A DNA stretch of 64,000 nt from Octopus sinensis. Its lineage: Eukaryota. Each line of letters starts with the position of its first letter. Position 1 is the first letter of the stretch. The notes under the pieces are model-generated. The model worked only from the letters and a program-made list of their open reading frames with translations, was not told where the DNA came from and searched no databases. Location of the stretch: assembly GCF_006345805.1 (NCBI RefSeq), contig NC_043001.1, forward strand, positions 24,118,001 through 24,182,000, given 5' to 3'. This document shows, piece by piece, positions 171-60,600 of the stretch. The translations under genes and the position numbers were made by a program.

Positions 171-236
<66 letters not shown>

Positions 237-240
237 ATTG
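1..240. repeat. (TA)n microsatellite
   Basis: Direct reading; source of the spurious YI-repeat ORFs. Confidence 0.95.
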
Positions 241-743
241 TATACATACATAATTTTTTATATGCATATTATATATATATATAATTTTTAAAGATACATG
301 TGTGTGCGTGTGCGTGTATGTGTGTGGGTGCATAAAAATCTACGATAACCAATTTGTCTGTTGATATCGTCGTTTGTCCACCTGTCCACCGTTAATTGCT
401 TTTGTGCAGGACACCCACTTCTCTACCTGGTCTTTGTTAATTCTTAGAAATATACGATGCAAATCACGCCCACTCTTTTTCTCCATTCTTATTTTGATTT
501 TCATTTCCCACCACTTTGTTTTCTTCTTCCTCTCCTCTCTCTCTCTGTCCTTCTCTCTCTCTCACTCTCCCTCTCTCTTTTTTACTCTTTCCAAGAGCTG
601 CGCTCAGTCTTTCTATTAAATAATTTTATATTTAGTTTTCACTCTTCATTTCTTTTATTGTTTTTTCTCTAGTGTCTGGAAAGTTGTAAGCTAATGCAAT
701 GTTGATAAATGTGTGTGTGTGTGTGCACGGGCGCGTGTTTGAG

Positions 744-5834: not shown

Positions 5835-7042
5835 CATATAAAAGGTGTGCGTTTATATATAAAAAATACTTGCATATATACGTGTCTATGTATGTAAGAA
5901 TATATATGTTTATATATGCATTGGTAAGTTTCCCACCGTTTTAATGATCTGTCACTCAGATACCCGTATTTTAACAATGGATTTGCTCATCTATCACCTA
6001 TTATTGCTTCTGTAAAGCAATGGATTTGAAGAAAAAAATCACGTTATTAAAATACATGTTTGCTAATATAATATGAAAATGGGATAAAACTCGATATCCA
6101 ACGAAATGGCGCTTATCTGCACCAAGAGAAATATGAAGTCGGTATAAATTCCAAAAGTTTATGTGGGATATCGAGAGGTCGTATGAGACGAGAGGAGACA
6201 AGGAGGCGATGTGACGGAGGAGAATATCAACTTCGTCAGAAAGGACGGAACCATTTGACTTTATCACATGACTGACAAACGTCGATCAAATGGTTAAACC
6301 ACTGAATACCATTTACAAAATACGTAAGCAACCGTTTCGCGCAAAACGGCGCGAAGAGTCCTACTCACCACTGTGTGTGTGTGTGTGTGTATGTGTGTGT
6401 GTGTTGTGCATCTCTGTATATACATACATATTCTCGTCTCTTGTGTACATAAATAATATTTACAAACATAATGTAAAACTCGTATACCGACCAACTCATA
6501 AATTTGAATAAACATATAAACATTATATCTTTGTGTGTGTGGAATATCTCTTCCAGATCGACGTTCAGATAATTCTATTCAGCAGTTCTTCGAATCAAAT
6601 GAAATATGATCATATTTTGGTATTCGCTGCCAGCATGCATGATGCTATATCCTTCATCATTCTGTATACACCCACTAAGGTTATACGTACTACTTTCATT
6701 CTTACTAGCTTATAAAAAAATATGGCACACGCTTTCGATTCCATTCTTTTTTTTATTGTTCACGATATGTGTAATACATATGGGGTTTCTTATCTTTAAA
6801 TAAGAATGAACTTTGGTGAATATGCGTAAAAGTGCTGAAGGTTAACAAGGATGTTCAAGACTAACAAAAATGTATACTGCACGGAAATACTATCAGCTGG
6901 GCCAGTCTGAAACGTATGTAGACTAACGGAAACACACTCTGCATGTACTCGTTCAGTGTTCTAATATTGATGGCCTTGTGGAGTTATCTGAATCGACCAA
7001 GAAACCAACCAAACAACAGAGCAAGCAAGAAAGCAAGTAACA

Positions 7043-7457
7043 AGGCAGCTGGCAGAAACGTTGGCACGCCGGACGAAATGCCTAGCGGTATTTCGTCTGC
7101 CGTTACGTTCTGAGTTCAAATTCCGCCGAGGTCGACTTTGCCTTTCATCCTTTCGGGGTCAATTAAATAAGTACCAGTTACGCACTGGGGTCGATATAAT
7201 CGACTTAATCCGTTTGTCTGTCCTTATTTGTCCTCTCTGTGTTTAGCCCCTTCTGGGTAGTAAAGAAATAGGTATTTCGTCTGCCGCTACGTTCTGAGTT
7301 CAAATTCCGCCGAGGTCGACTTTGCCTTTCATCCTTTCGGGGTAGATAAATTAAGGACCAGTTACGCACTGGGGTCGATGTAATCAACTTAATCCCTTTG
7401 TCTGTCCTTGTTTGTCCCCTCTATGCTTATCCCCTTGTGGGCAATAAAGAAATAAGA
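7043..7457 (+). mobile_element. SINE family B, dimeric copy
   Basis: gagctggcagaaacgttagcac-type head, gttcaaattcc B-box-like motif; internal unit repeated after the aaagaaata|ggtatttc junction. Confidence 0.85.
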
Positions 7458-8668: not shown

Positions 8669-9612
8669 ATATATATGTATGTGTGTGTATATGTTTGTAT
8701 GTTTGTGTTTGTTCCCCCCTCATCGATGTGTGTTTACGTCCCCGTAACTTAGCGGTTCGGCAAAAGTGCCCAATAGAATAAGTAGTAGGCTTATAAAGAA
8801 TTAATCCTTACAAAGAATAAGTCCATCTTTACGTTCTGAGTTCTAATTCTGCCGAGCTCTACTTCGCCTTTCATCCCTTCGGGGCGCATAAAATAAGTAA
8901 CAGTTAAACACTGGGCTGATGTAATCGACTCCCTCCCTCCCTCCCTCCCCCAACAATGCTGGTCTTCTGCCAAAGTTTGAAACCATTATTTTTAATATGA
9001 AAGAATTTATGTGAGTTGATTATAAACTCGTTGATATGATCTTATGTAACTTTCTGCAAACTTCAGCAAGCATCCTGAACTTATCATATTTTTACGCATT
9101 ATTATTTACTAACATCATTCGTTTCTTTTGTGCCTTTGTTTATATTATACCCGATGCTTCTTTGCAGCAATTTTTTATCCTGTGCCGTCTGCGGTTTTAG
9201 TCCGTTGAGAATTACCTAATTTTTTGTTAACGATTTGAACGCATTTTGAAATACGATCGTTCACTTCTGTTTGTAATATTTCATCAATTATATGATTAAG
9301 CTGCATCAATTAATTTCATCTTGTCATATTATATATATGTGTGTGTGTGTGTGTGTACGTAAGATACATAAAACTTCTATACATTGCTGTCTTAAGGAAT
9401 GCATGTGCTATGATATAATGCCTATGTGGTAGAGAAACACCTTGAAGAAGGAAGATATTGCTAAACAGGCGATACTGTCTTCCATTGCCAATGAGGCAGT
9501 AAATGTATTGTTACCCGGCAAAGGCTTGAATGTGCCGCTATTTGAATTATTTATTGTGATAATTATATATGTAGCCTGTAGAGGGAATCCTTCATCGAGG
9601 AACGGTGCTTAC

Positions 9613-9655
9613 CATACGTTGATAAGAGGCAATGACCTCGAAACCGGTCCGTATG
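9613..9655 (+). ncRNA. Minimal type I hammerhead ribozyme, U3-A8 variant, at the tip of a hairpin spanning 9572-9699
   Basis: catacg-UUGAUAA-gagg(caatga)cctc-GAAA-ccg-GUC-cgtatg; stems I and II perfect. Confidence 0.75.
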
Positions 9656-9911
9656 TAGTATTCGTATCTTCGGGGAGGATGATCTCCCTTTACAGGCTAA
9701 CAAGGACACAGAGATGGTGTCGGTCCTTCTGGTGACGTCGATGATCGCCTGGGGCTAAAAGCATCAGTAACACCCCCACCACCCCGCCCTGTCCCTAGCC
9801 ACATTCAGATGGCTGATCCCCCTTACATTATTATTATTGTTCTAAATTATATATGATGACCAAATGAGTTTTCTCCCAAATATACATGCATACATGTATG
9901 TATGTATGTCA

Positions 9912-11712: not shown

Positions 11713-11832
11713 TTCTTTACATTATTTACATTTCGACGGATATTTGTCCTCATCTTGTTTGTTGTTAACACAACGTTTCGGCTGATTTACCCTCAAGCCT
11801 TCATCAGGTGCCTTGGGGAAATTTTCGAACCT
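11713..11832 (-). mobile_element. Inverted partial copy of the HHR-bearing SINE tail (HHR at 11767-11812)
   Basis: Reverse complement of about 12118-12235. Confidence 0.85.
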
Positions 11833-12091: not shown

Positions 12092-12282
12092 TCGAAAAAT
12101 ACCTGAGGAATGAGAACCCAGGTTCGAAATTTCCCCAAGACACCTGATGAAGGCTGGAGGGTATATCAGCCGAAACGTTGTGTTAACAACAAACAAGATG
12201 AGGACAAATATCGGTCAAATGTAAATAATGTAAATAATGTAAATGATGTACATAATTCCTCATCTCTTAAATATAGAACTGT
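11954..12282 (+). mobile_element. tRNA-derived SINE with (AAT)n linker and hammerhead-containing Penelope-pLTR-like tail
   Basis: A box TGGCGTAGTGG 11960-11970, B box GAGTTCGATTCC 12003-12014, (AAT)n 12028-12090, HHR 12139-12184. Confidence 0.75.
12139..12184 (+). ncRNA. Minimal type I hammerhead ribozyme motif
   Basis: gacac-CUGAUGA-a-ggctg/cagcc-GAAA-c-GUU-gtgtt; palindromic stem III (AACGUU). Confidence 0.75.
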
Positions 12283-27703: not shown

Positions 27704-28597
27704 CGAGGTCTGATCAATAAGTATCCGGACTATTGCCATAGTAATGAAGCTAAACTCCGCAGAGTAAAGTTGCACGACAAAGATTGACCTTGATCTCTGT
27801 TATGCATGAGCACTAAGTTTTAACGTTCTAGCTCACTTCCGCTGTTTACAGCAGTGCTTGGAAGGAAGGTGTGTAGCGTGTGATCGTCACGTTGACCGTG
27901 ACAGAGAAAGTTACCTTGGCGATACCTGCGCAGAGGTCTACGCAAAGTTGCAGAAAGTGAATGGAGAGGGGTGTATGAGCCGCACACAAGTGTTCGAGTG
28001 GTTCAGACGTTTCCAAGATGGCCGACAAAATGTCGATATTGACAAACGTTCTGGGAGCCTCGCAACCAGCAGAACTGAGAAAAACGTCGCAGATGTGCGT
28101 GCAGCTGTGAGGGGAAATTGTAGAATCATCAACTGTGAGTTATCAGAGGATGTGCAGACTAGTTACCGTTCAGTTCAGTCCATTATCACTAAAGATTTTG
28201 GTATGAGATGCGTGTCTGCCAAGTTTGTGCCAAAACTGCTTTCAGCTGACCAAAAAGACACACGAGTTTCAATTGCGCAAGATCTCCTTGATTACGTCAT
28301 GAACGATGAAAACTTTTTTAAAACTTTGCGTAGGCACCTGAGCAGGTATCGCCATGCCTTTGGCAAAATTTGATTCAGATTCTCTGCTCAACTTTCTCTG
28401 ACATGGTCAATGCAACGATCACACGCTACACACCGTCTGCCAAGCAGTGCTGTAAAGAGCAGAAGTAAGCTAAAATATTAAAACTTAGTGTGCATAGACA
28501 GCAGAGATCAAGGTTAGTTTGTACCAAGTGGTCTTACCCTGCATGCTTTAGCTTCGTTACTATGGCAACAGTCCGGATACTTATTGATCAGACCACG
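27704..28597 (+). mobile_element. Mariner deletion derivative with long inverted ends
   Basis: TIR cg(a/t)ggtctgatcaataagtatccggact, inverted similarity extends about 190 bp; ORF 27858..28373 is the transposase N-terminal HTH region to the FVPKLL linker (WVPHEL-like); no DDD domain. Confidence 0.9.
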
Positions 28598-31499: not shown

Positions 31500-31990
31500 A
31501 ATGTTCACGGGAGAAAGATTTGTGTCAGTTGTTATTTCTTATCTCTCCTCAAGTTCATTAGCTGTCATAATGTTTTAGTTTTGTGATTATAGATTAGATT
31601 GTGACAGGTTTTTGGTTTTGCTTTCTGCTGGAGATATTTTCAGGTTGTGTCTTCTATGATATTAAAACAGATTTGAGGTTACAGCCGCCCTCCTTACCTA
31701 GAGAATATAATCAATCTATATTCCCCAATGACATTGAAATTTCCAGTAAACCAGAGTGTTTTGTGAATTCTTATTCCCATCTTATTAACTTATTGTGACC
31801 AGTTAAGTATTCCAAATCTAGGTGTTAGGAAAGATACAGCAAATATTTTGAAAGCAATGTTTGTTGTGGGTTGAGATTCCTATGGTTCATATTTTCTGTA
31901 CTCTTTTGAGATAGTCATTCATTTCTTGTTTCCCCACTCTGCTACCTCCTTCATCATACCTGAAATCCTCATCCAGTCCAAGGAGCTTGA
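31500..31990 (-). mobile_element. Decayed R4/Dong-like LINE fragment (post-RT region)
   Basis: Remnants LLGLDED..DYLKRVQKI and KEGGCNL (R.EGGRGL-like). Confidence 0.45.
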
Positions 31991-31995
31991 AAAGC

Positions 31996-32395
31996 AGCGA
32001 GCTGGCAGAAACGTTAGCACGCCGGGCGAAATGCTTTGCGGTATTTCGTCTGAAGCTATGTTCTGAGTTCAAATTCCGCCGAGGTCGACTTTGCCTTTCA
32101 TTCTTTCGGGGTCAATTAAATAAGTACTAGTTATTCACTGGGGTCGATGTAATTGACTTAATCCGTTTGTCTGTCCTTGTTTGTCCCCTCTGTGTTTAGC
32201 CCCTTGTGGGTAGTAAAGAAATAGGTATTTCGTCTGAGTTCAAATTCCTTAGTGGTCGACTTCACCTTTCATCCTTTCGGGGTCAATTAAATAAGTACCA
32301 GTTACGCACTGGGGTTGATATAATCAACTTAATCCATTTGTCTGTCCTTGTTTGTCACCTCTGTGTGTAGCTCCTTGTGGGTAGTAAACAAATAA
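31996..32395 (+). mobile_element. SINE family B, dimeric copy
   Basis: Same aaagaaata|ggtatttc junction at about 32223. Confidence 0.85.
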
Positions 32396-46140: not shown

Positions 46141-46518
46141 TGATAATAATAACAATGATAATAATAATAATAATAATAACAATAATAATAATAATAATAA
46201 TAGTAGTAGTAATTTGTTTTATTTCTTTTTTAACAAACCCTTCTAGGCACGTCACACCTATGCAAGACACTTTTGATTTAATAACACAACTCACATTCTA
46301 CACAATTGTCACCTAATAATATAATACAGCCTACACAATCCACAAACTGCATACGTTACACACCCAACACAAAAACACGATACACAATAAGCATCCACCA
46401 AAAATAACACAACTAATGCACAGAATACTCACTACAAACAAATGAAATGAAACACTCAACGCAAGAAATAATAAACTCTACCACAGCAAAGATACAATAT
46501 ACAAACACAATAAGACAG

Positions 46519-47310
46519 CAGGCTGGCAGAAATGTTAGCACACCGGGTGAAATGCTTAGCGGTATTTCGTCTGCCGCTACATTCTGAGTTCAAATTTCGC
46601 CGAGGTCGACTTTGCCTTTCATCGTTTCGAGGTCGATTAAATAAGTACCACTTACGCACTGGGGTCGATGTAATCAACTTAATCCGTTTGTCTGTCCGTG
46701 TTTGTCCCCTCTGTGTTTAGCCCCTTGTGGGTAGTAAAGAAATAGGTATTTCATCTGCCGTTACGTTGAGTTCCGAGTTCAAATTCTGCTGAGGTTGACT
46801 TTGCCTTTTATCCTTTCAGGGTCGATTAAATAAGTACCAATTACGCGCTGGAGTTGATATAATTGACTTTATCCGTTTGTCTGTTCGTGTTTGTCCCCTC
46901 TGTGTTTAGCCCCTTGTGGGTAGTAAAGAAATAGGTATTTCACCTGTTGCTACATTCTGAGTTCAAATTCCGCTGAGGTCGACTTTGCCTTTATCCGTTT
47001 GTCTGTCCTTGTTTGTCCCCTTTGTGTTTAGCCCCTTGTGGGTAGTAAAGAAATAGGTAATTTGTCTGCCGTTACGTTGAGTTCCGAGTTCAAATTCTGC
47101 CGAGGTTGATTTTGCCTTTTATCCTTTCGGGTTCGATTAAATAAGTACCAGTTACGCACTGGGGTCGATATAATCAACTTAATCCATTTGTCTGTCCTTG
47201 TTTGTCCCGTCTGTGTTTAGCCCCTTGAGGGTAGTAAAGAAATAGGTATATTGTCTGCCGCTATGTTCTGAGTTCAAATTCCGCCGAGGTCGCCTTTGCT
47301 TTTCATCTTT
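46519..47310 (+). repeat. SINE family B multimer: one head followed by about five internal units
   Basis: Junction aaagaaata|ggta recurs at about 46744, 46933, 47054, 47244. Confidence 0.9.
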
Positions 47311-49303: not shown

Positions 49304-49443
<140 letters not shown>

Positions 49444-49504
49444 TTGTAAAAAATGAAGTTCGAAAATGCTGCTGTATTATACAAGTTTTAATTTTTATAT
49501 ATAT

Positions 49505-49552
49505 ACATTATAACATGTTTCAGTTCCTGAAATGAACTTTATCAAAAAAAGT
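49505..49552 (-). ncRNA. HHR-like motif at the 3' end of the PLE (U3-A8 core)
   Basis: UUGAUAA-agttc/gaact-GAAA-cat-GUU; stem I unclear. Confidence 0.45.
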
Positions 49553-49925
49553 TATATATAAAAAAAGACAGCTCATGCCGTCAAACACAAGAAATTCATT
49601 TATAATACACAACGGAGTCAGACATCTTAGAGTTCATGTATAATTGATATATAGTTCATGTATAGTTGATATATAGTTTGAAGTATATGTTCAAAGTGTT
49701 CGATGCAGTGGCCCACGGTGGCGATACGTATTCAATACAAAAAACAGATCAAAGTGGTGGAAAGCGGTCAATACAGAAGATTGATGTTTCCGAAAGAGCG
49801 AGGAATTCATTTTTACCTTAAGCAAATGTGATGACCCATGGTGGATGCTCGCTGGGTGGTTCTAATGAGTTTTTGTGAAGTGTTCGGTTTTATAATGCCT
49901 GTTAGGTGGTCAATTCAGCGTAGTG

Positions 49926-50342
49926 TGACGTCATCAACGTTTCGACCAATCGTTTCGTTAGGTGGCTTTAACGGGACGTCATCATTATTTTGACCAATCG
50001 CTGCATTATAACTTCCTCTTGTTTGTTTTCCTGTTTTGACCAGTCGCTTCGTTAGTCAAGTAGAACGGGACGTCATCATTATTTTGACCAATCGCTGCAT
50101 TATAACTGCCTCTTGTTTGTTTCCTGTCCTGACCAGTCGCTTCGTTAGTCAAGCAGAACGGGACGTCATGCAGATTCTGCCCAATCACGACTTATAGCTA
50201 CATTAGATCTGCCCCCTGTCTGTACTTGTTAGGTGACTATTCAAGCAGAAAAGGACGTCATCAATATTCTGACTAATGACTGTCCCCTGTTTGTATCCTG
50301 TCCATTCTAGCTGAGCTAGACGTCATCAACTTGTTGACCAAT
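49926..50342. promoter_or_regulatory. Six CRE-like GACGTCA-N12-CCAAT modules in the PLE 3' region
   Basis: Counted spacers are all 12 nt; five CCAAT and one CTAAT. Confidence 0.55.
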
Positions 50343-50513
50343 CAGAATCGGGTCTGACCCTTAGCTGTATCGTATGTATCAGGGTCAGATTTGCACGAAA
50401 GAATTTTTTCCCTTTTTTTTACTTGGGTATATTTCCGTCAGAGTGAGTGTCTGTTTGAAGTAGCGGTCGTGGTGAAATTTTGCTTCTCCTTTTCGGAGGA
50501 CTTATCTTTTGTT

Positions 50514-51706
50514 TTAGTATTCCTGGCCCAGGGTGTTTAAACTTGGTCTAAATTTTTTTATGAAATATAGTTCTTTATTTTGGCGTTGTGTGAAGGTTGC
50601 GTTGTCACTGAATTTATAGAGCGGGTTAGTTGTAAATTTCGGATTTACATTTCCAGCACATCTATCTATGTGTCCGCTGACCGGTATTTTCCGGTATTCA
50701 GGGTTTCTAATTTGTGATTTATGCACCGCCATCCTGTTACGTAAGCTATTTTTTGTATGGCCTATATACTGCCTATTGCAGCCTGCGCATGTTATGACGT
50801 AAATTAAGTTTTCTGATGCACAGGTGAAGTTTGTTCTAATGGTGAACTGGTGGCCTTGTTCCAGTATAATTCTGATCCTTCTTTCAAGATGACACAGATT
50901 CCGCAGTTGGGCCTTCCACATTTTCTAACTGCTGGTTTTGTGGTTGATGTTGAGTGCAGTGTAGCTTGGGTTAAGATCCTTTTCAAGGATTTTGGTTGCC
51001 GTTTACTTTTAATGATGGTGTGTGTTTCGAGGATCCGGTTCATCTTTGGGTCTCCCTTTAGTAGGGCTGTGCTTTGTAGTATGGTGTTGAAGGCCTCATT
51101 GTTGAGTGGGTTGTGTGTAGAAATGTAGGGAAGGGTTTTTAATTGTTCTTTCTTTTTTGGTTTTGTTTGTCTCAGGTCTTCTATACTTAATTTAAGTACC
51201 CGTTGGATTGCACTGTCTATTAGGGGCTGTGGATAGTTTCTATTTGTGAGTGTGGTTCTAAGTTCCTGGAGACGTGTGTGTCGGGTGTTTGTGTCTGATA
51301 TTATGGTGCAAATCCTTCTAGCTAAACAAAAAGGGACATTCATTCTAGTGTGTCATGGGTGGCATGAATCAAAGGGTAGGTACTGTTTAGAGTCTGTCGG
51401 TTTATAGTAGATATCTGTCTCTATTTTGTTGCCGGTTTTCTTAATGAGGATGTCTAAAAATGGTAATTCTTTTTCGTTGTGGTCCATCGTGAATTGTATA
51501 TTGTCATTTATTCCATTTAATAGTATTTTAAATTCCTCAAGTTTCTCTATACCTTTGTCCCAGATGATGAAACAGTCATCGAGGTATCTTTTCCAGTTGT
51601 TATGGATATAGGTGGCGAAGGTGTTTCCATATTTCTCGAGTGTCATCCGGTATAGAATTTTCTCGAGGTATCCCATCACTAGGTTGGCAAAAGATGGTGC
51701 AGTACG

Positions 51707-51709
<3 letters not shown>
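50514..51709 (-). pseudogene. PLE RT/GIY-YIG polyprotein remnant
   Basis: One in-frame TGA at 51353-51355 and one frameshift near 50865 separate the three ORF-track segments. Confidence 0.9.
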
Positions 51710-51750
<41 letters not shown>

Positions 51751-52339
51751 GATCACCATGTTGATTCGCTAGCTTCTGCACGCATTTTTTTTCTCTCCTT
51801 GTTTCTCTCCGTGTTTCTTTTCTGTGTATCTTTCTGTTGAAGAGCGTAGGCTCAAAACGTAAAAGACTTGTTTTATTTATATTCCTGAGCGCCATACTAA
51901 TACAATTGTTTGTTTGTATTCCACCTGCCCTCGTCTTTTGTTTATTTTCATAAAGCTTCCCATTATATATATATATAAATACATAAGCACAGGAGCAGGA
52001 GTGGCTGTGTGGTAAGTAGCTTGCTTACCAACCACATGTGGGTTCATTCCCACTGCATGGCACCTTGGGCAAGTTTCTTCTACTATAATCTCAGGCCAAC
52101 CAAAGCCTTGTGAGTAGATTTGGTAGACGGAAACTGAAAGAAGCCTTTCGTATATATGTATATATATGTGTGTATGTATGTGTGTGTATATGTTTGTGTG
52201 TCTGTGTTAAATTGAACTTGGAAACATGTGGTTTCAATATAAACCTTTAACCATACAGCCATGTCTGCCTACCCTGTTCAATGAATGGAAGTTGATTGTA
52301 GGTCCCTTAATTCCTAAGCAGTAAGGGAACCATTATATA

Positions 52340-52570
52340 TTTCTTTACTACCCACAAGGGCCTAAACACAGAGGGGACAAACAAGGACAGACAAACAGAT
52401 TAAGTCGATTACATCGACCCCAGTGCGTAACTGGTACTTAATTTATCGACCCCGAAAGGATGAAAGGCAAAGTCGACCTCGGTGGAATTTGAACCCAGAA
52501 TGTAACGGCAGACGAAATACGGCTATGCATTTCGCCCGGCGTGCTAATGTTTCTGCCAGTTCGCCGCCTT
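52340..52570 (-). mobile_element. SINE family B
   Basis: Match to family B. Confidence 0.85.
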
Positions 52571-53683
52571 TAAGGGAACAATTATAGTTAACCAATCCCT
52601 TCCAATCCTGGCTCCGAATTAAACTGTAGAGTCAGTCTTTTGCTTGATTACAGTTACAGACTATCAAAAATTGTATTTGTTGCTCAATTTACTTATACTT
52701 AACTCAATAGAATTCACTGAAGAAGAGGAAAACCAGCGAAAACAAAAAGAGAAAACTAACAACAACAGCAACAACCTTAGTGGCAACAACAACAACAACA
52801 ACAACAACAACAGCAGCTACAACAATAGGCAAAACTACAATGGGCTAACATGAAAGATGGTTTCTCTTGATTCCAGCTTAGTTATAACAGATGAGATTAT
52901 ATTAAATGGTAGAGCCAGAGGCTCGAAATAGCTGAGATAGGAAGTAGCAATGTTCTGCGTAATGGTTAATCATATACCAACTTATTTCCATCTTTCCTTC
53001 TATTCTTTCCACGGATGCTATTATTATTATTATTATTGTTATTGATGCTACTATTGTTACAGTTGTCATCATTATCATTACTATTATTATTATTATTATT
53101 ATTATCATTATTTTTATTTTTATTATTGCTATTGTTGTTGTCGTAGTTGTTGTTATCATTATTATTGTTATATCTGTTACAAAGAAAGAAACAATATTCT
53201 CTATTTGCCGCAGGTAACTGAAGTACTTGCTCATTTCTTCCCTCGTGTTGCCTTTTGTTTATTTTCTGATTTATTTTTTTTATATATTCATTTTCTTTTG
53301 TTGAAATACCTGTTTATGTTAGTAAAATTATCTCTTGCTTAATTTTCTGTACATATACAACAATGTTAATGCACGATGTTAAGCTGTCTGCTATTCTACC
53401 AGTTCATACAGATTCATTTTCAAGAATTCCCACAGCTTCCACTTGCACTTCCACAAGATCTATTCTATATTCCATGTGCCGTCTTCCTAAAAATTAACAA
53501 TTAATTCAAGAGTGCATCATAACATCAACATAAAATTCAATAAAGGACAACTGATAGGAAACCACCACCACCAACACCACCACAGTAGAAAGGGAGGCAG
53601 CTTTATGCTTGAAGATTAGGGGTTAAACTATAAGAGGAAAGGGCTGCAGCAGAACAGGTTTCCTGGTGTAGAGGAGCTAAATG

Positions 53684-60369: not shown

Positions 60370-60600
60370 TTTATTTCTTTATTGCCCACAAGGGGCTAAA
60401 TATAGAGGGGACAAACAAGGACAGACAAAGGGATTAAGTCGATTGCAGCGACCCCAGTGCTTAACTGGTACTTAATTTGTCAACCCCGAAAGGATGAAAG
60501 GCAAAGTTGACCTCGGCAGCATTTGAACTCAGAATATAAAGACAGTCGAAATACTGCTTAGCATTTTGCCTAGCGTGCTAACGTTTCTGCCAGCTTGCCT
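60370..60600 (-). mobile_element. SINE family B
   Basis: Match to family B. Confidence 0.85.

What the first reader, a model, noticed from the sequence alone, without database searches (positions are those of the whole stretch)
9572..9699. Solo hammerhead with covariant U3-A8 core capping a 128-nt hairpin
Seen: perfect stem I (catacg/cgtatg) and stem II (gagg/cctc), a GUC site, and core UUGAUAA; the flanks pair further (tagcctgtagaggga/tccctttacaggcta). Established: C3-G8 is a tertiary Watson-Crick pair, so U3-A8 is a compensatory change. Inference: a selected, probably active variant that canonical CUGANGA searches miss; there is no recognisable autonomous element nearby.
Basis: partly seen in the sequence, partly recalled or inferred. 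Interest (0 to 1): 0.75.

Follow-up and report, generated by a model that had tools for sequence, protein, structure and literature searches.

The report
Retrozyme family cycling its ribozyme core
This is a cut-short copy of a young, several-hundred-copy jumping element that carries a predicted self-cutting RNA; its unusual core base pair is already known, but sister subfamilies in the same genome carry all four versions of that pair, two of them mismatched, which likely records the pair being swapped one letter at a time while the element kept spreading.

Summary
The hammerhead is real (9613-9655, +; U3 at 9619, A8 at 9624), but it is not a lone, orphan motif. It lies in a 5'-truncated, sub-unit copy (9563-9831) of a ~360-nt non-coding tandem element with hundreds of young copies and Penelope-type insertion marks (TA-repeat targets, inverted arms, two fixed ends): a non-LTR retrozyme. 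Stem III is a bare palindrome; folding predicts activity only as a dimer, so this solo copy is probably inert. U3-A8 is in print (Perreault 2011; Cervera 2014), and this scan found U3-A8 retrozymes before, on other DNA of this and other genomes. New here: sister subfamilies carry all four 3:8 states (U-A 193, C-G 61, C·A 18 exact hits; a 343-hit sister family is almost all U3, mostly U·G), while ten other core positions stay fixed and the stem III palindrome takes three forms. A tree rooted on one distant C-G copy reads C-G, U·G, U-A, then a C·A/C-G clade. So U3-A8 is one stage of a stepwise walk through mismatches, not a strictly enforced compensation. Cleavage, circles and the mobilising enzyme are inferred; a TA-targeting Penelope-like element in this window is a candidate.

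The parts
9563..9831 (+). 5'-truncated, sub-unit copy of a ~360-nt non-LTR retrozyme monomer (loose match back to 9551)
   Evidence: 2 substitutions and 1 indel against locus L002 over this stretch; maps to monomer positions 259..182 counted from the cleavage site; 83 matches among 40 scored of 1349 candidates
9572..9699 (+). Long hairpin that carries the hammerhead at its tip
   Evidence: z -6.8; 10 of 40 pairs change on both sides in 26 copies, 6 of them in the outer stem
9613..9655 (+). Type I hammerhead motif: 6-bp stem I, 4-bp stem II with 6-nt loop, palindromic stem III
   Evidence: sequence; stem I pair probabilities 0.79-1.0, stem II 0.96-0.97
9619..9625 (+). Core U3 U4 G5 A6 U7 A8 A9 (U3-A8 variant)
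   Evidence: sequence; 80 exact TTGATAA and 113 TTGAVAA hits genome-wide
9643..9648 (+). Palindrome ACCGGT, predicted dimerisation helix (stem III of the double hammerhead)
   Evidence: in a natural tandem of this subfamily the double hammerhead is the minimum-energy fold, -191.3 against -178.6 kcal/mol for two single hammerheads; replaced by ACTATAGT and ACTCGAGT in sister families
9649..9649 (+). C17; predicted cleavage on its 3' side
   Evidence: position by hammerhead consensus (established); C in 165 of 168 copies; not tested
9823..9831 (+). Fixed 3' end 'site A' of the family (inferred priming site at an AT-rich target)
   Evidence: outer 3' ends of 104 insertions cluster at monomer positions 177-185 and 221-228
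9561..9571 (+). Possible target-site duplication AATTATATATG, second copy at 9845-9855; 9 of its 11 bases also match the element
   Evidence: read by eye; no empty allele seen, so unproven
49443..51709 (-). 5'-truncated, broken Penelope-like element (RT, CxxC linker, GIY-YIG) in a TA repeat; candidate kind of mobilising partner, not part of the insertion
   Evidence: GIY-YIG PF01541, E 1.4e-7; relatives with open 781-aa frames; no DNA similarity to the monomer

Best explanation
The motif is the hammerhead of one 5'-truncated copy of a young ~360-nt non-coding tandem element (a non-LTR retrozyme) that was likely pasted in by a Penelope-type reverse transcriptase, and whose RNA is predicted to cut itself only when two hammerheads pair through their palindromes. 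Shown: family, copy counts, tandem and head-to-head arrangement, two fixed 3' ends next to TA repeats, conservation of the core and stems, the four 3:8 states. Inferred: read-through transcripts of tandem copies fold into a double hammerhead, are cut to unit length and ligated to a circle; the enzyme primes both target strands on that RNA at sites A and B and runs past the ligated site, giving more-than-unit and inverted copies. This window's copy has one hammerhead and lacks about a fifth of the unit, so it is probably a dead end. U3-A8 is a working lineage state, but the 3:8 pair is the one soft spot of the core: lineages with U·G and C·A also spread, most likely because slower cutting is enough (U·G) or because the site is cut by a sister RNA's core in a mixed dimer (C·A; untested).
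For: Family: (402 exact hits of a 3' marker). Tandem unit 360 nt. Anatomy of 104 distinct insertions: 54 head-to-head, 46 of these end at A on one side and B on the other; 50 have a segment over 365 nt; 107 of 159 segments cross the cleavage site, 4 start within 5 nt of it (4.4 expected); 119 of 148 A/B ends are followed by three or more TA. Inverted 5'-truncated copies, a 30-40-bp tail at one end and TA bias are described for Penelope-like elements (PMC8557442, section 6). Junction C17-1.1 is seamless in 166 of 168 copies; 7 of 39 multi-copy insertions share a variant found nowhere else, against at most 1.2% of random pairs. Selection on source lineages: 0 of 10 core columns have a variant shared by three or more copies, against 101 of 175 columns outside the ribozyme (168 copies) and 60 of 175 in the 55 copies picked without using the core (Fisher p 0.032); private changes are equally frequent in core and flank, 0.0091 per site. 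Three different palindromes. 97.6% of cells paired, best slid control 54.4%. Double hammerhead beats two single ones in 4 of 4 natural tandems. Walk of states: tree rooted on L171; AU test rejects one clade for the U-A rows of the window's family (p 0.0007) and for all C3 rows with the outgroup (p 0.00015).
Against: No cleavage, circle or transcript was shown. The double hammerhead is the free minimum only for the U-A tandem; for C-G, C·A and U·G tandems it lies 6-8 kcal/mol above the free fold. Stems I and II show only wobble changes in the 26-row set, no two-sided change; the one two-sided change in stem I is in the single distant copy L171. More-than-unit copies could also come from uncut multimeric transcripts or template jumps. 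The monomer shares no DNA with the candidate Penelope-like element. The root rests on one long branch (0.44); the clades tested were named after trees were seen; the order inside the C3 clade is unresolved (p 0.28 and 0.36). Only 3 of the 55 copies picked without the core belong to the 8-nt family. Amplified mismatch cores are also what a dispensable ribozyme would show.
Confidence: 0.78

Rival explanations
1. The ribozyme no longer matters for mobility: the element spreads from uncut multimeric transcripts, and the hammerhead fold is kept as a structural or protein-binding module or by inertia.
For: C3·A8 (18 exact hits, own young clade with tandem copies up to 881 nt) and U3·G8 (most of 343 hits) lineages amplified. 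Naiad elements spread without hammerheads (PMC8557442, passages); Penelope hammerheads cut slowly in vitro (PMC4209133).
Confidence: 0.13
2. The 360-nt unit is the terminal repeat of an autonomous Penelope-like element that I did not find, and the copies are its truncated stubs.
For: Same insertion marks; U3-A8 hammerheads occur in terminal repeats of Schistosoma elements (PMC4209133); Penelope-type coding pieces lie within 1.5 kb in 5 of 90 locus records (4 places) and 3 further records.
Against: Upstream of the unit lies the unit itself or unrelated flank in the 104 insertions mapped. In L018, the one case read by eye, the element sits in the TA tail of another element; the other places were not inspected. 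Searches score only the best candidates, so a rare full-length master is not excluded.
Confidence: 0.06
3. One reading: a selected, active solo ribozyme at this locus, possibly of use to the host.
For: The motif is intact and the hairpin is very stable.
Against: The copy differs from its nearest sister at 2 of 268 sites, so intactness reflects youth; genomic copies decay in the core at the same rate as outside; stem III does not form in the monomer.
Confidence: 0.03

Closest known systems
Metazoan non-LTR retrozymes (Cervera and de la Pena 2020, PMC7229834; passages and section 14 read; Li, Clavereau and Pollet, bioRxiv 10.64898/2026.07.22.740005; part 1 of 5, passages and Discussion read)
   Same: Non-coding tandem unit of 350-390 nt as in mussel, type I hammerhead with 6-bp stem I, 4-bp stem II and weak palindromic stem III, strongly self-paired unit (circular fold z -4.4), solo copies, co-occurrence with Penelope-like elements.
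   Different: Non-canonical cores in most copies; all four 3:8 states as subfamilies; head-to-head insertions with two fixed ends; no terminal-repeat homology with the candidate autonomous element; circular RNA not shown here. 'Octopus' has 0 occurrences in the main text of both papers; their supplements were not seen.
U3-A8 hammerheads: Perreault et al. 2011 (PMC3088659, section 8 read) and Schistosoma Cercyon minimal hammerheads, about 1,300 hits (PMC4209133, parts 1-2 of 4 read)
   Same: Same core covariation; described as natural and, by citation of Przybilski and Hammann 2007, active in vitro; mostly single motifs in Schistosoma.
   Different: Here the motif has canonical helix sizes, sits in a tandem non-coding unit, and is flanked on the tree by amplified U·G and C·A relatives. 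A single natural U3/G8 core with an insertion is cited in PMC7151607 (one passage).
Penelope-like elements of the Neptune/Nematis type (PMC8557442, passages and section 6 read)
   Same: Insertion marks: 5' truncation, partial tandems, inverted copy, 30-40-bp tail at one end, TA-repeat bias.
   Different: The element encodes no protein; which autonomous family moves it is not shown.

Membership tests
Type I hammerhead ribozyme | Core consensus C3U4G5A6N7G8A9, G12A13A14, A15.1-U16.1, H17 | tested here: met
   All positions present except C3-G8, replaced by the known U3-A8 variant
Type I hammerhead ribozyme | Three helices, stem I open | tested here: met
   Stems I and II form; stem III forms only in the dimer, as described for most metazoan type I motifs
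Type I hammerhead ribozyme | Match to an Rfam hammerhead model | tested here: not met
   No match at gathering score or E up to 10; expected for a variant core with a 1-bp stem III, so it does not bear on function
Type I hammerhead ribozyme | Self-cleavage after H17 | not testable with these tools
   needs an in vitro assay
Non-LTR retrozyme | Tandem unit of about 170-400 nt with one type I hammerhead per unit | tested here: met
   360-nt units in tandem at other loci; this copy itself is shorter than one unit
Non-LTR retrozyme | Non-coding, dispersed, multi-copy | tested here: met
   no ORF of 110 aa over it; hundreds of dispersed hits
Non-LTR retrozyme | Highly self-paired unit RNA | tested here: met
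   circular fold -115.2 kcal/mol, z -4.4 against 60 shuffles
Non-LTR retrozyme | Accumulates as circular RNA | not testable with these tools
   only assembled contigs were on hand; indirect support from more-than-unit copies and shared private variants
Non-LTR retrozyme | Derived from, or homologous to, a Penelope terminal repeat (Li et al. 2026) | tested here: inconclusive
   no blastn match to 35 loci of the one autonomous family examined; other families not examined
Autonomous Penelope-like element | RT plus GIY-YIG frame between terminal repeats | tested here: not met
   none in the 104 insertions mapped; nearby coding pieces in a few loci, one shown to be a nested insertion

The most novel reading that the evidence does not exclude
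One retroelement lineage has walked the whole way round the hammerhead's catalytic 3:8 pair by single steps (C-G, U·G, U-A, C·A, back to C-G), staying mobile in both mismatched states; the C·A stage crossed the valley as a cheater whose site is cut by the intact core of a sister RNA in a mixed double hammerhead, which the shared palindrome and stem I allow.
Probability: 0.25. Interest if true: 0.75.

Novelty: new variant of a known kind. Interest (0 to 1): 0.5.

Why it matters
The single copy is ordinary. The family is a natural experiment: four core states of one ribozyme, on near-identical scaffolds, each with a count of new insertions. It makes two open questions testable with natural sequences: whether hammerhead cutting is needed for Penelope-driven retrotransposition, and how a compensatory change in a catalytic RNA core passes through its mismatched intermediates. 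It also shows that searches fixed on CUGANGA would miss most hammerheads of this group (62 of 617 exact hits are C3-G8: 61 of 274 and 1 of 343; C-G copies with a 5-nt loop II were not counted).

Tried and rejected
Rfam: nothing. The higher summed depth over 9729-9825 in those runs is no copy number and served only as a lead to the sister family. DNA similarity between monomer and the window's Penelope family: none. tRNA scan: none. Look-up of earlier notes by sequence and by the mismatch idea: nothing. Idea that C·A copies are scattered CpG decay of C-G copies: rejected, they differ from C-G rows at 6 columns and form young groups with tandem copies; CpG sites change only 1.7 times faster. Idea that C·A copies come from one uncut multimer with unit-specific marks: not supported. 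Age order by divergence between units of one insertion (C-G 1.2%, U-A 1.8%, C·A 2.3%, U·G 2.7%) fits the tree but is weak: C-G against C·A p 0.003, 0.097 without locus L043. One search crashed and one search used a misaligned structure string; both were redone and are not used. Kinetic papers on 3:8 exchanges (Przybilski and Hammann 2007; Nelson and Uhlenbeck 2008) and Lunse et al. 2016 were not held: that single C3U or G8A changes slow cleavage strongly is recalled, not read, and these papers may bear on novelty. Ten literature searches found no report of amplified U·G or C·A subfamilies or of mixed-dimer rescue; the library lacks most subscription papers, and supplements were not read.

Full report
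1. Observation. The motif is as described. Exact places: stem I 9613-9618/9650-9655, core TTGATAA 9619-9625, stem II 9626-9629/9636-9639, GAA 9640-9642, palindrome ACCGGT 9643-9648, C17 9649. The 128-nt stretch folds at z -6.8. A relaxed scan finds 0.1 chance hit per shuffled 64 kb and none of this quality in 30 shuffles. Rfam is blank. In the monomer, stems I and II form but A15.1-U16.1 does not (probability 0.0; 6.2 kcal/mol to force).

2. It is a copy of a family. The window lies in a 2.72-Gb genome, octopus-like by inference. A search with 9540-9850 gave 1349 candidates, 40 scored, 83 matches. Tandem loci show a 360-nt unit. The window's copy covers 9563-9831, loosely from 9551, and differs from its nearest sister at 2 of 268 sites. 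It holds one hammerhead and about four fifths of a unit.

3. Insertion anatomy. Of 104 distinct insertions mapped on the unit, 54 are head-to-head; in 46 of them one arm ends at site A (177-185 nt after the cleavage site) and the other at site B (221-228). 119 of 148 such ends are followed by TA repeats. 50 insertions have a segment longer than 365 nt, up to 881. 107 of 159 segments run through the cleavage site and only 4 start near it (4.4 expected). The junction is seamless in 166 of 168 copies, and 7 of 39 multi-copy insertions share a variant seen nowhere else (random pairs at most 1.2%). Inverted truncated copies, a 30-40-bp tail and TA bias are the published marks of Penelope-like elements (PMC8557442 section 6). 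I had seen two ends; earlier notes of the scan state the same two-ended pattern, and I tested it here. A circular template is the simplest reading; uncut multimers or template jumps are not excluded.

4. Candidate enzyme. The window holds a truncated Penelope-like element in a TA repeat at 49443-51709, with an in-frame stop and a frameshift. Its family has 16,792 candidates, 150 scored, several with an open 781-aa frame that shows a C-terminal GIY-YIG domain after a CxxC linker, the Neptune/Nematis layout. It shares the target but no DNA with the monomer, so it is a candidate only.

5. Selection on the ribozyme. In 168 copies that span the motif, none of ten core columns (4, 5, 6, 9, 12-14, 15.1, 16.1, 17) has a variant shared by three copies, against 101 of 175 columns outside; in the 55 copies picked without using the core, 0 of 10 against 60 of 175 (p 0.032), with equal private change rates of 0.0091. 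So source lineages are constrained and inserted copies decay freely. In 26 chosen copies 97.6% of cells pair and 10 of 40 pairs change on both sides, mostly in the outer stem; stems I and II change only by wobble (related rows inflate the shuffle control). Stem III takes three palindromic forms: ACCGGT, ACTATAGT and ACTCGAGT (one copy). In four natural tandems the double hammerhead beats two single ones by 5-16 kcal/mol, and for the U-A tandem it is the free minimum. This matches the dimer model for metazoan type I motifs (PMC4209133).

6. The 3:8 pair. U3-A8 is known: natural and active in vitro by citation (PMC3088659 section 8), about 1,300 hits in Schistosoma. Exact counts with the ACCGGT scaffold and a 6-nt loop II: U-A 193, C-G 61, C·A 18, U·G 2; a C-G group with a 5-nt loop is missed by these patterns. 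The ACTATAGT family has 343 hits, 1 with C3; 95 of the first 100 listed have G8 (counted by eye). C·A copies are a young group of their own (pairwise 0.024), with tandems, and differ from C-G rows at 6 columns. Trees without columns 3 and 8 form a ladder. Rooted on the distant C-G copy L171 (71 of the rows, a balanced subsample): U·G grades, then U-A with the window's copy, then a clade of C·A and C-G (100/99). AU tests reject U-A monophyly and a root beside the C3 clade, and leave the order within that clade open. Caveats: one long outgroup branch, hypotheses named after seeing trees, two U-A rows at the base, recombination checked for only three loci. The firm result is that both mismatched states amplified; the full loop is likely but less sure.

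7. Mechanism. Shown: items 1-3, 5 and the counts in 6. Inferred: tandem transcripts form a double hammerhead, are cut, ligated and reverse transcribed from two target nicks. In a double hammerhead each core cuts the partner's site (established model), and U-A, C·A and C-G subfamilies share palindrome and stem I, so a C·A RNA could be cut by a sister; the U·G family cannot pair with them (0.0 kcal/mol) and must manage with its wobble or without cutting. The rival is a dispensable ribozyme.

8. Comparison and novelty. It works like, and meets the testable features of, a metazoan non-LTR retrozyme (PMC7229834; bioRxiv 10.64898/2026.07.22.740005); circular RNA and cleavage are untested. The scan has noted U3-A8 retrozymes before. 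Ten paper searches and one look-up in earlier notes found no account of all four core states in one lineage; three key papers could not be read, and supplements were not seen.

9. Verdict. Observation confirmed, interpretation partly supported. The copy is an ordinary, probably inert retrozyme fragment with a known core variant; the family's stepwise walk through mismatched cores is the point of interest. Interest 0.5.

Noticed in passing
window 12144-12185 (+) and 11766-11807 (-): Inverted pair of canonical-core minimal hammerheads (CTGATGA, palindrome ACGT) around an AAT repeat and a tRNA-like stretch (by eye; ARAGORN finds no tRNA); a separate Penelope-type family 2 kb from the finding.
   Followed up: partly
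window about 49500-49545 (-): The 3' end of the Penelope-like element carries a hammerhead-like motif with the same UUGAUAA core, a 5-bp stem II, palindrome ACATGT and a weak AU-rich stem I; core identical in 26 of 26 matches among 30 young loci, so conservation says little.
   Followed up: partly
L171:400-775: One copy of a third, distant family: C3-G8 core, 5-bp stem II, palindrome ACTCGAGT, stem I CACACG/CGTGTG; it sits beside an insertion of the window's family.
   Followed up: partly
L018:1433-1826: Terminally redundant, more-than-unit retrozyme copy nested in the TA tail of another Penelope-like element.
   Followed up: yes
core position 7, all copies: Position 7 is C or U in 166 of 168 copies, and the monomer fold pairs G5-A6-N7 with the GUC site: a possible off state of the monomer, or just the usual pyrimidine preference.
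   Followed up: no
L278:700-1050: Short head-to-head copy of a further diverged relative sharing the 3' module, too short to hold a hammerhead.
   Followed up: no
window 27810-28373 (+): Mariner-type transposase remnant (HTH_48, E 1.9e-7).
   Followed up: no
window 7015-7454, 31968-32394, 46489-47303, 52338-52571, 60372-60598: Dispersed and partly tandem copies of a 184-310-nt interspersed repeat, SINE-like by recall.
   Followed up: no
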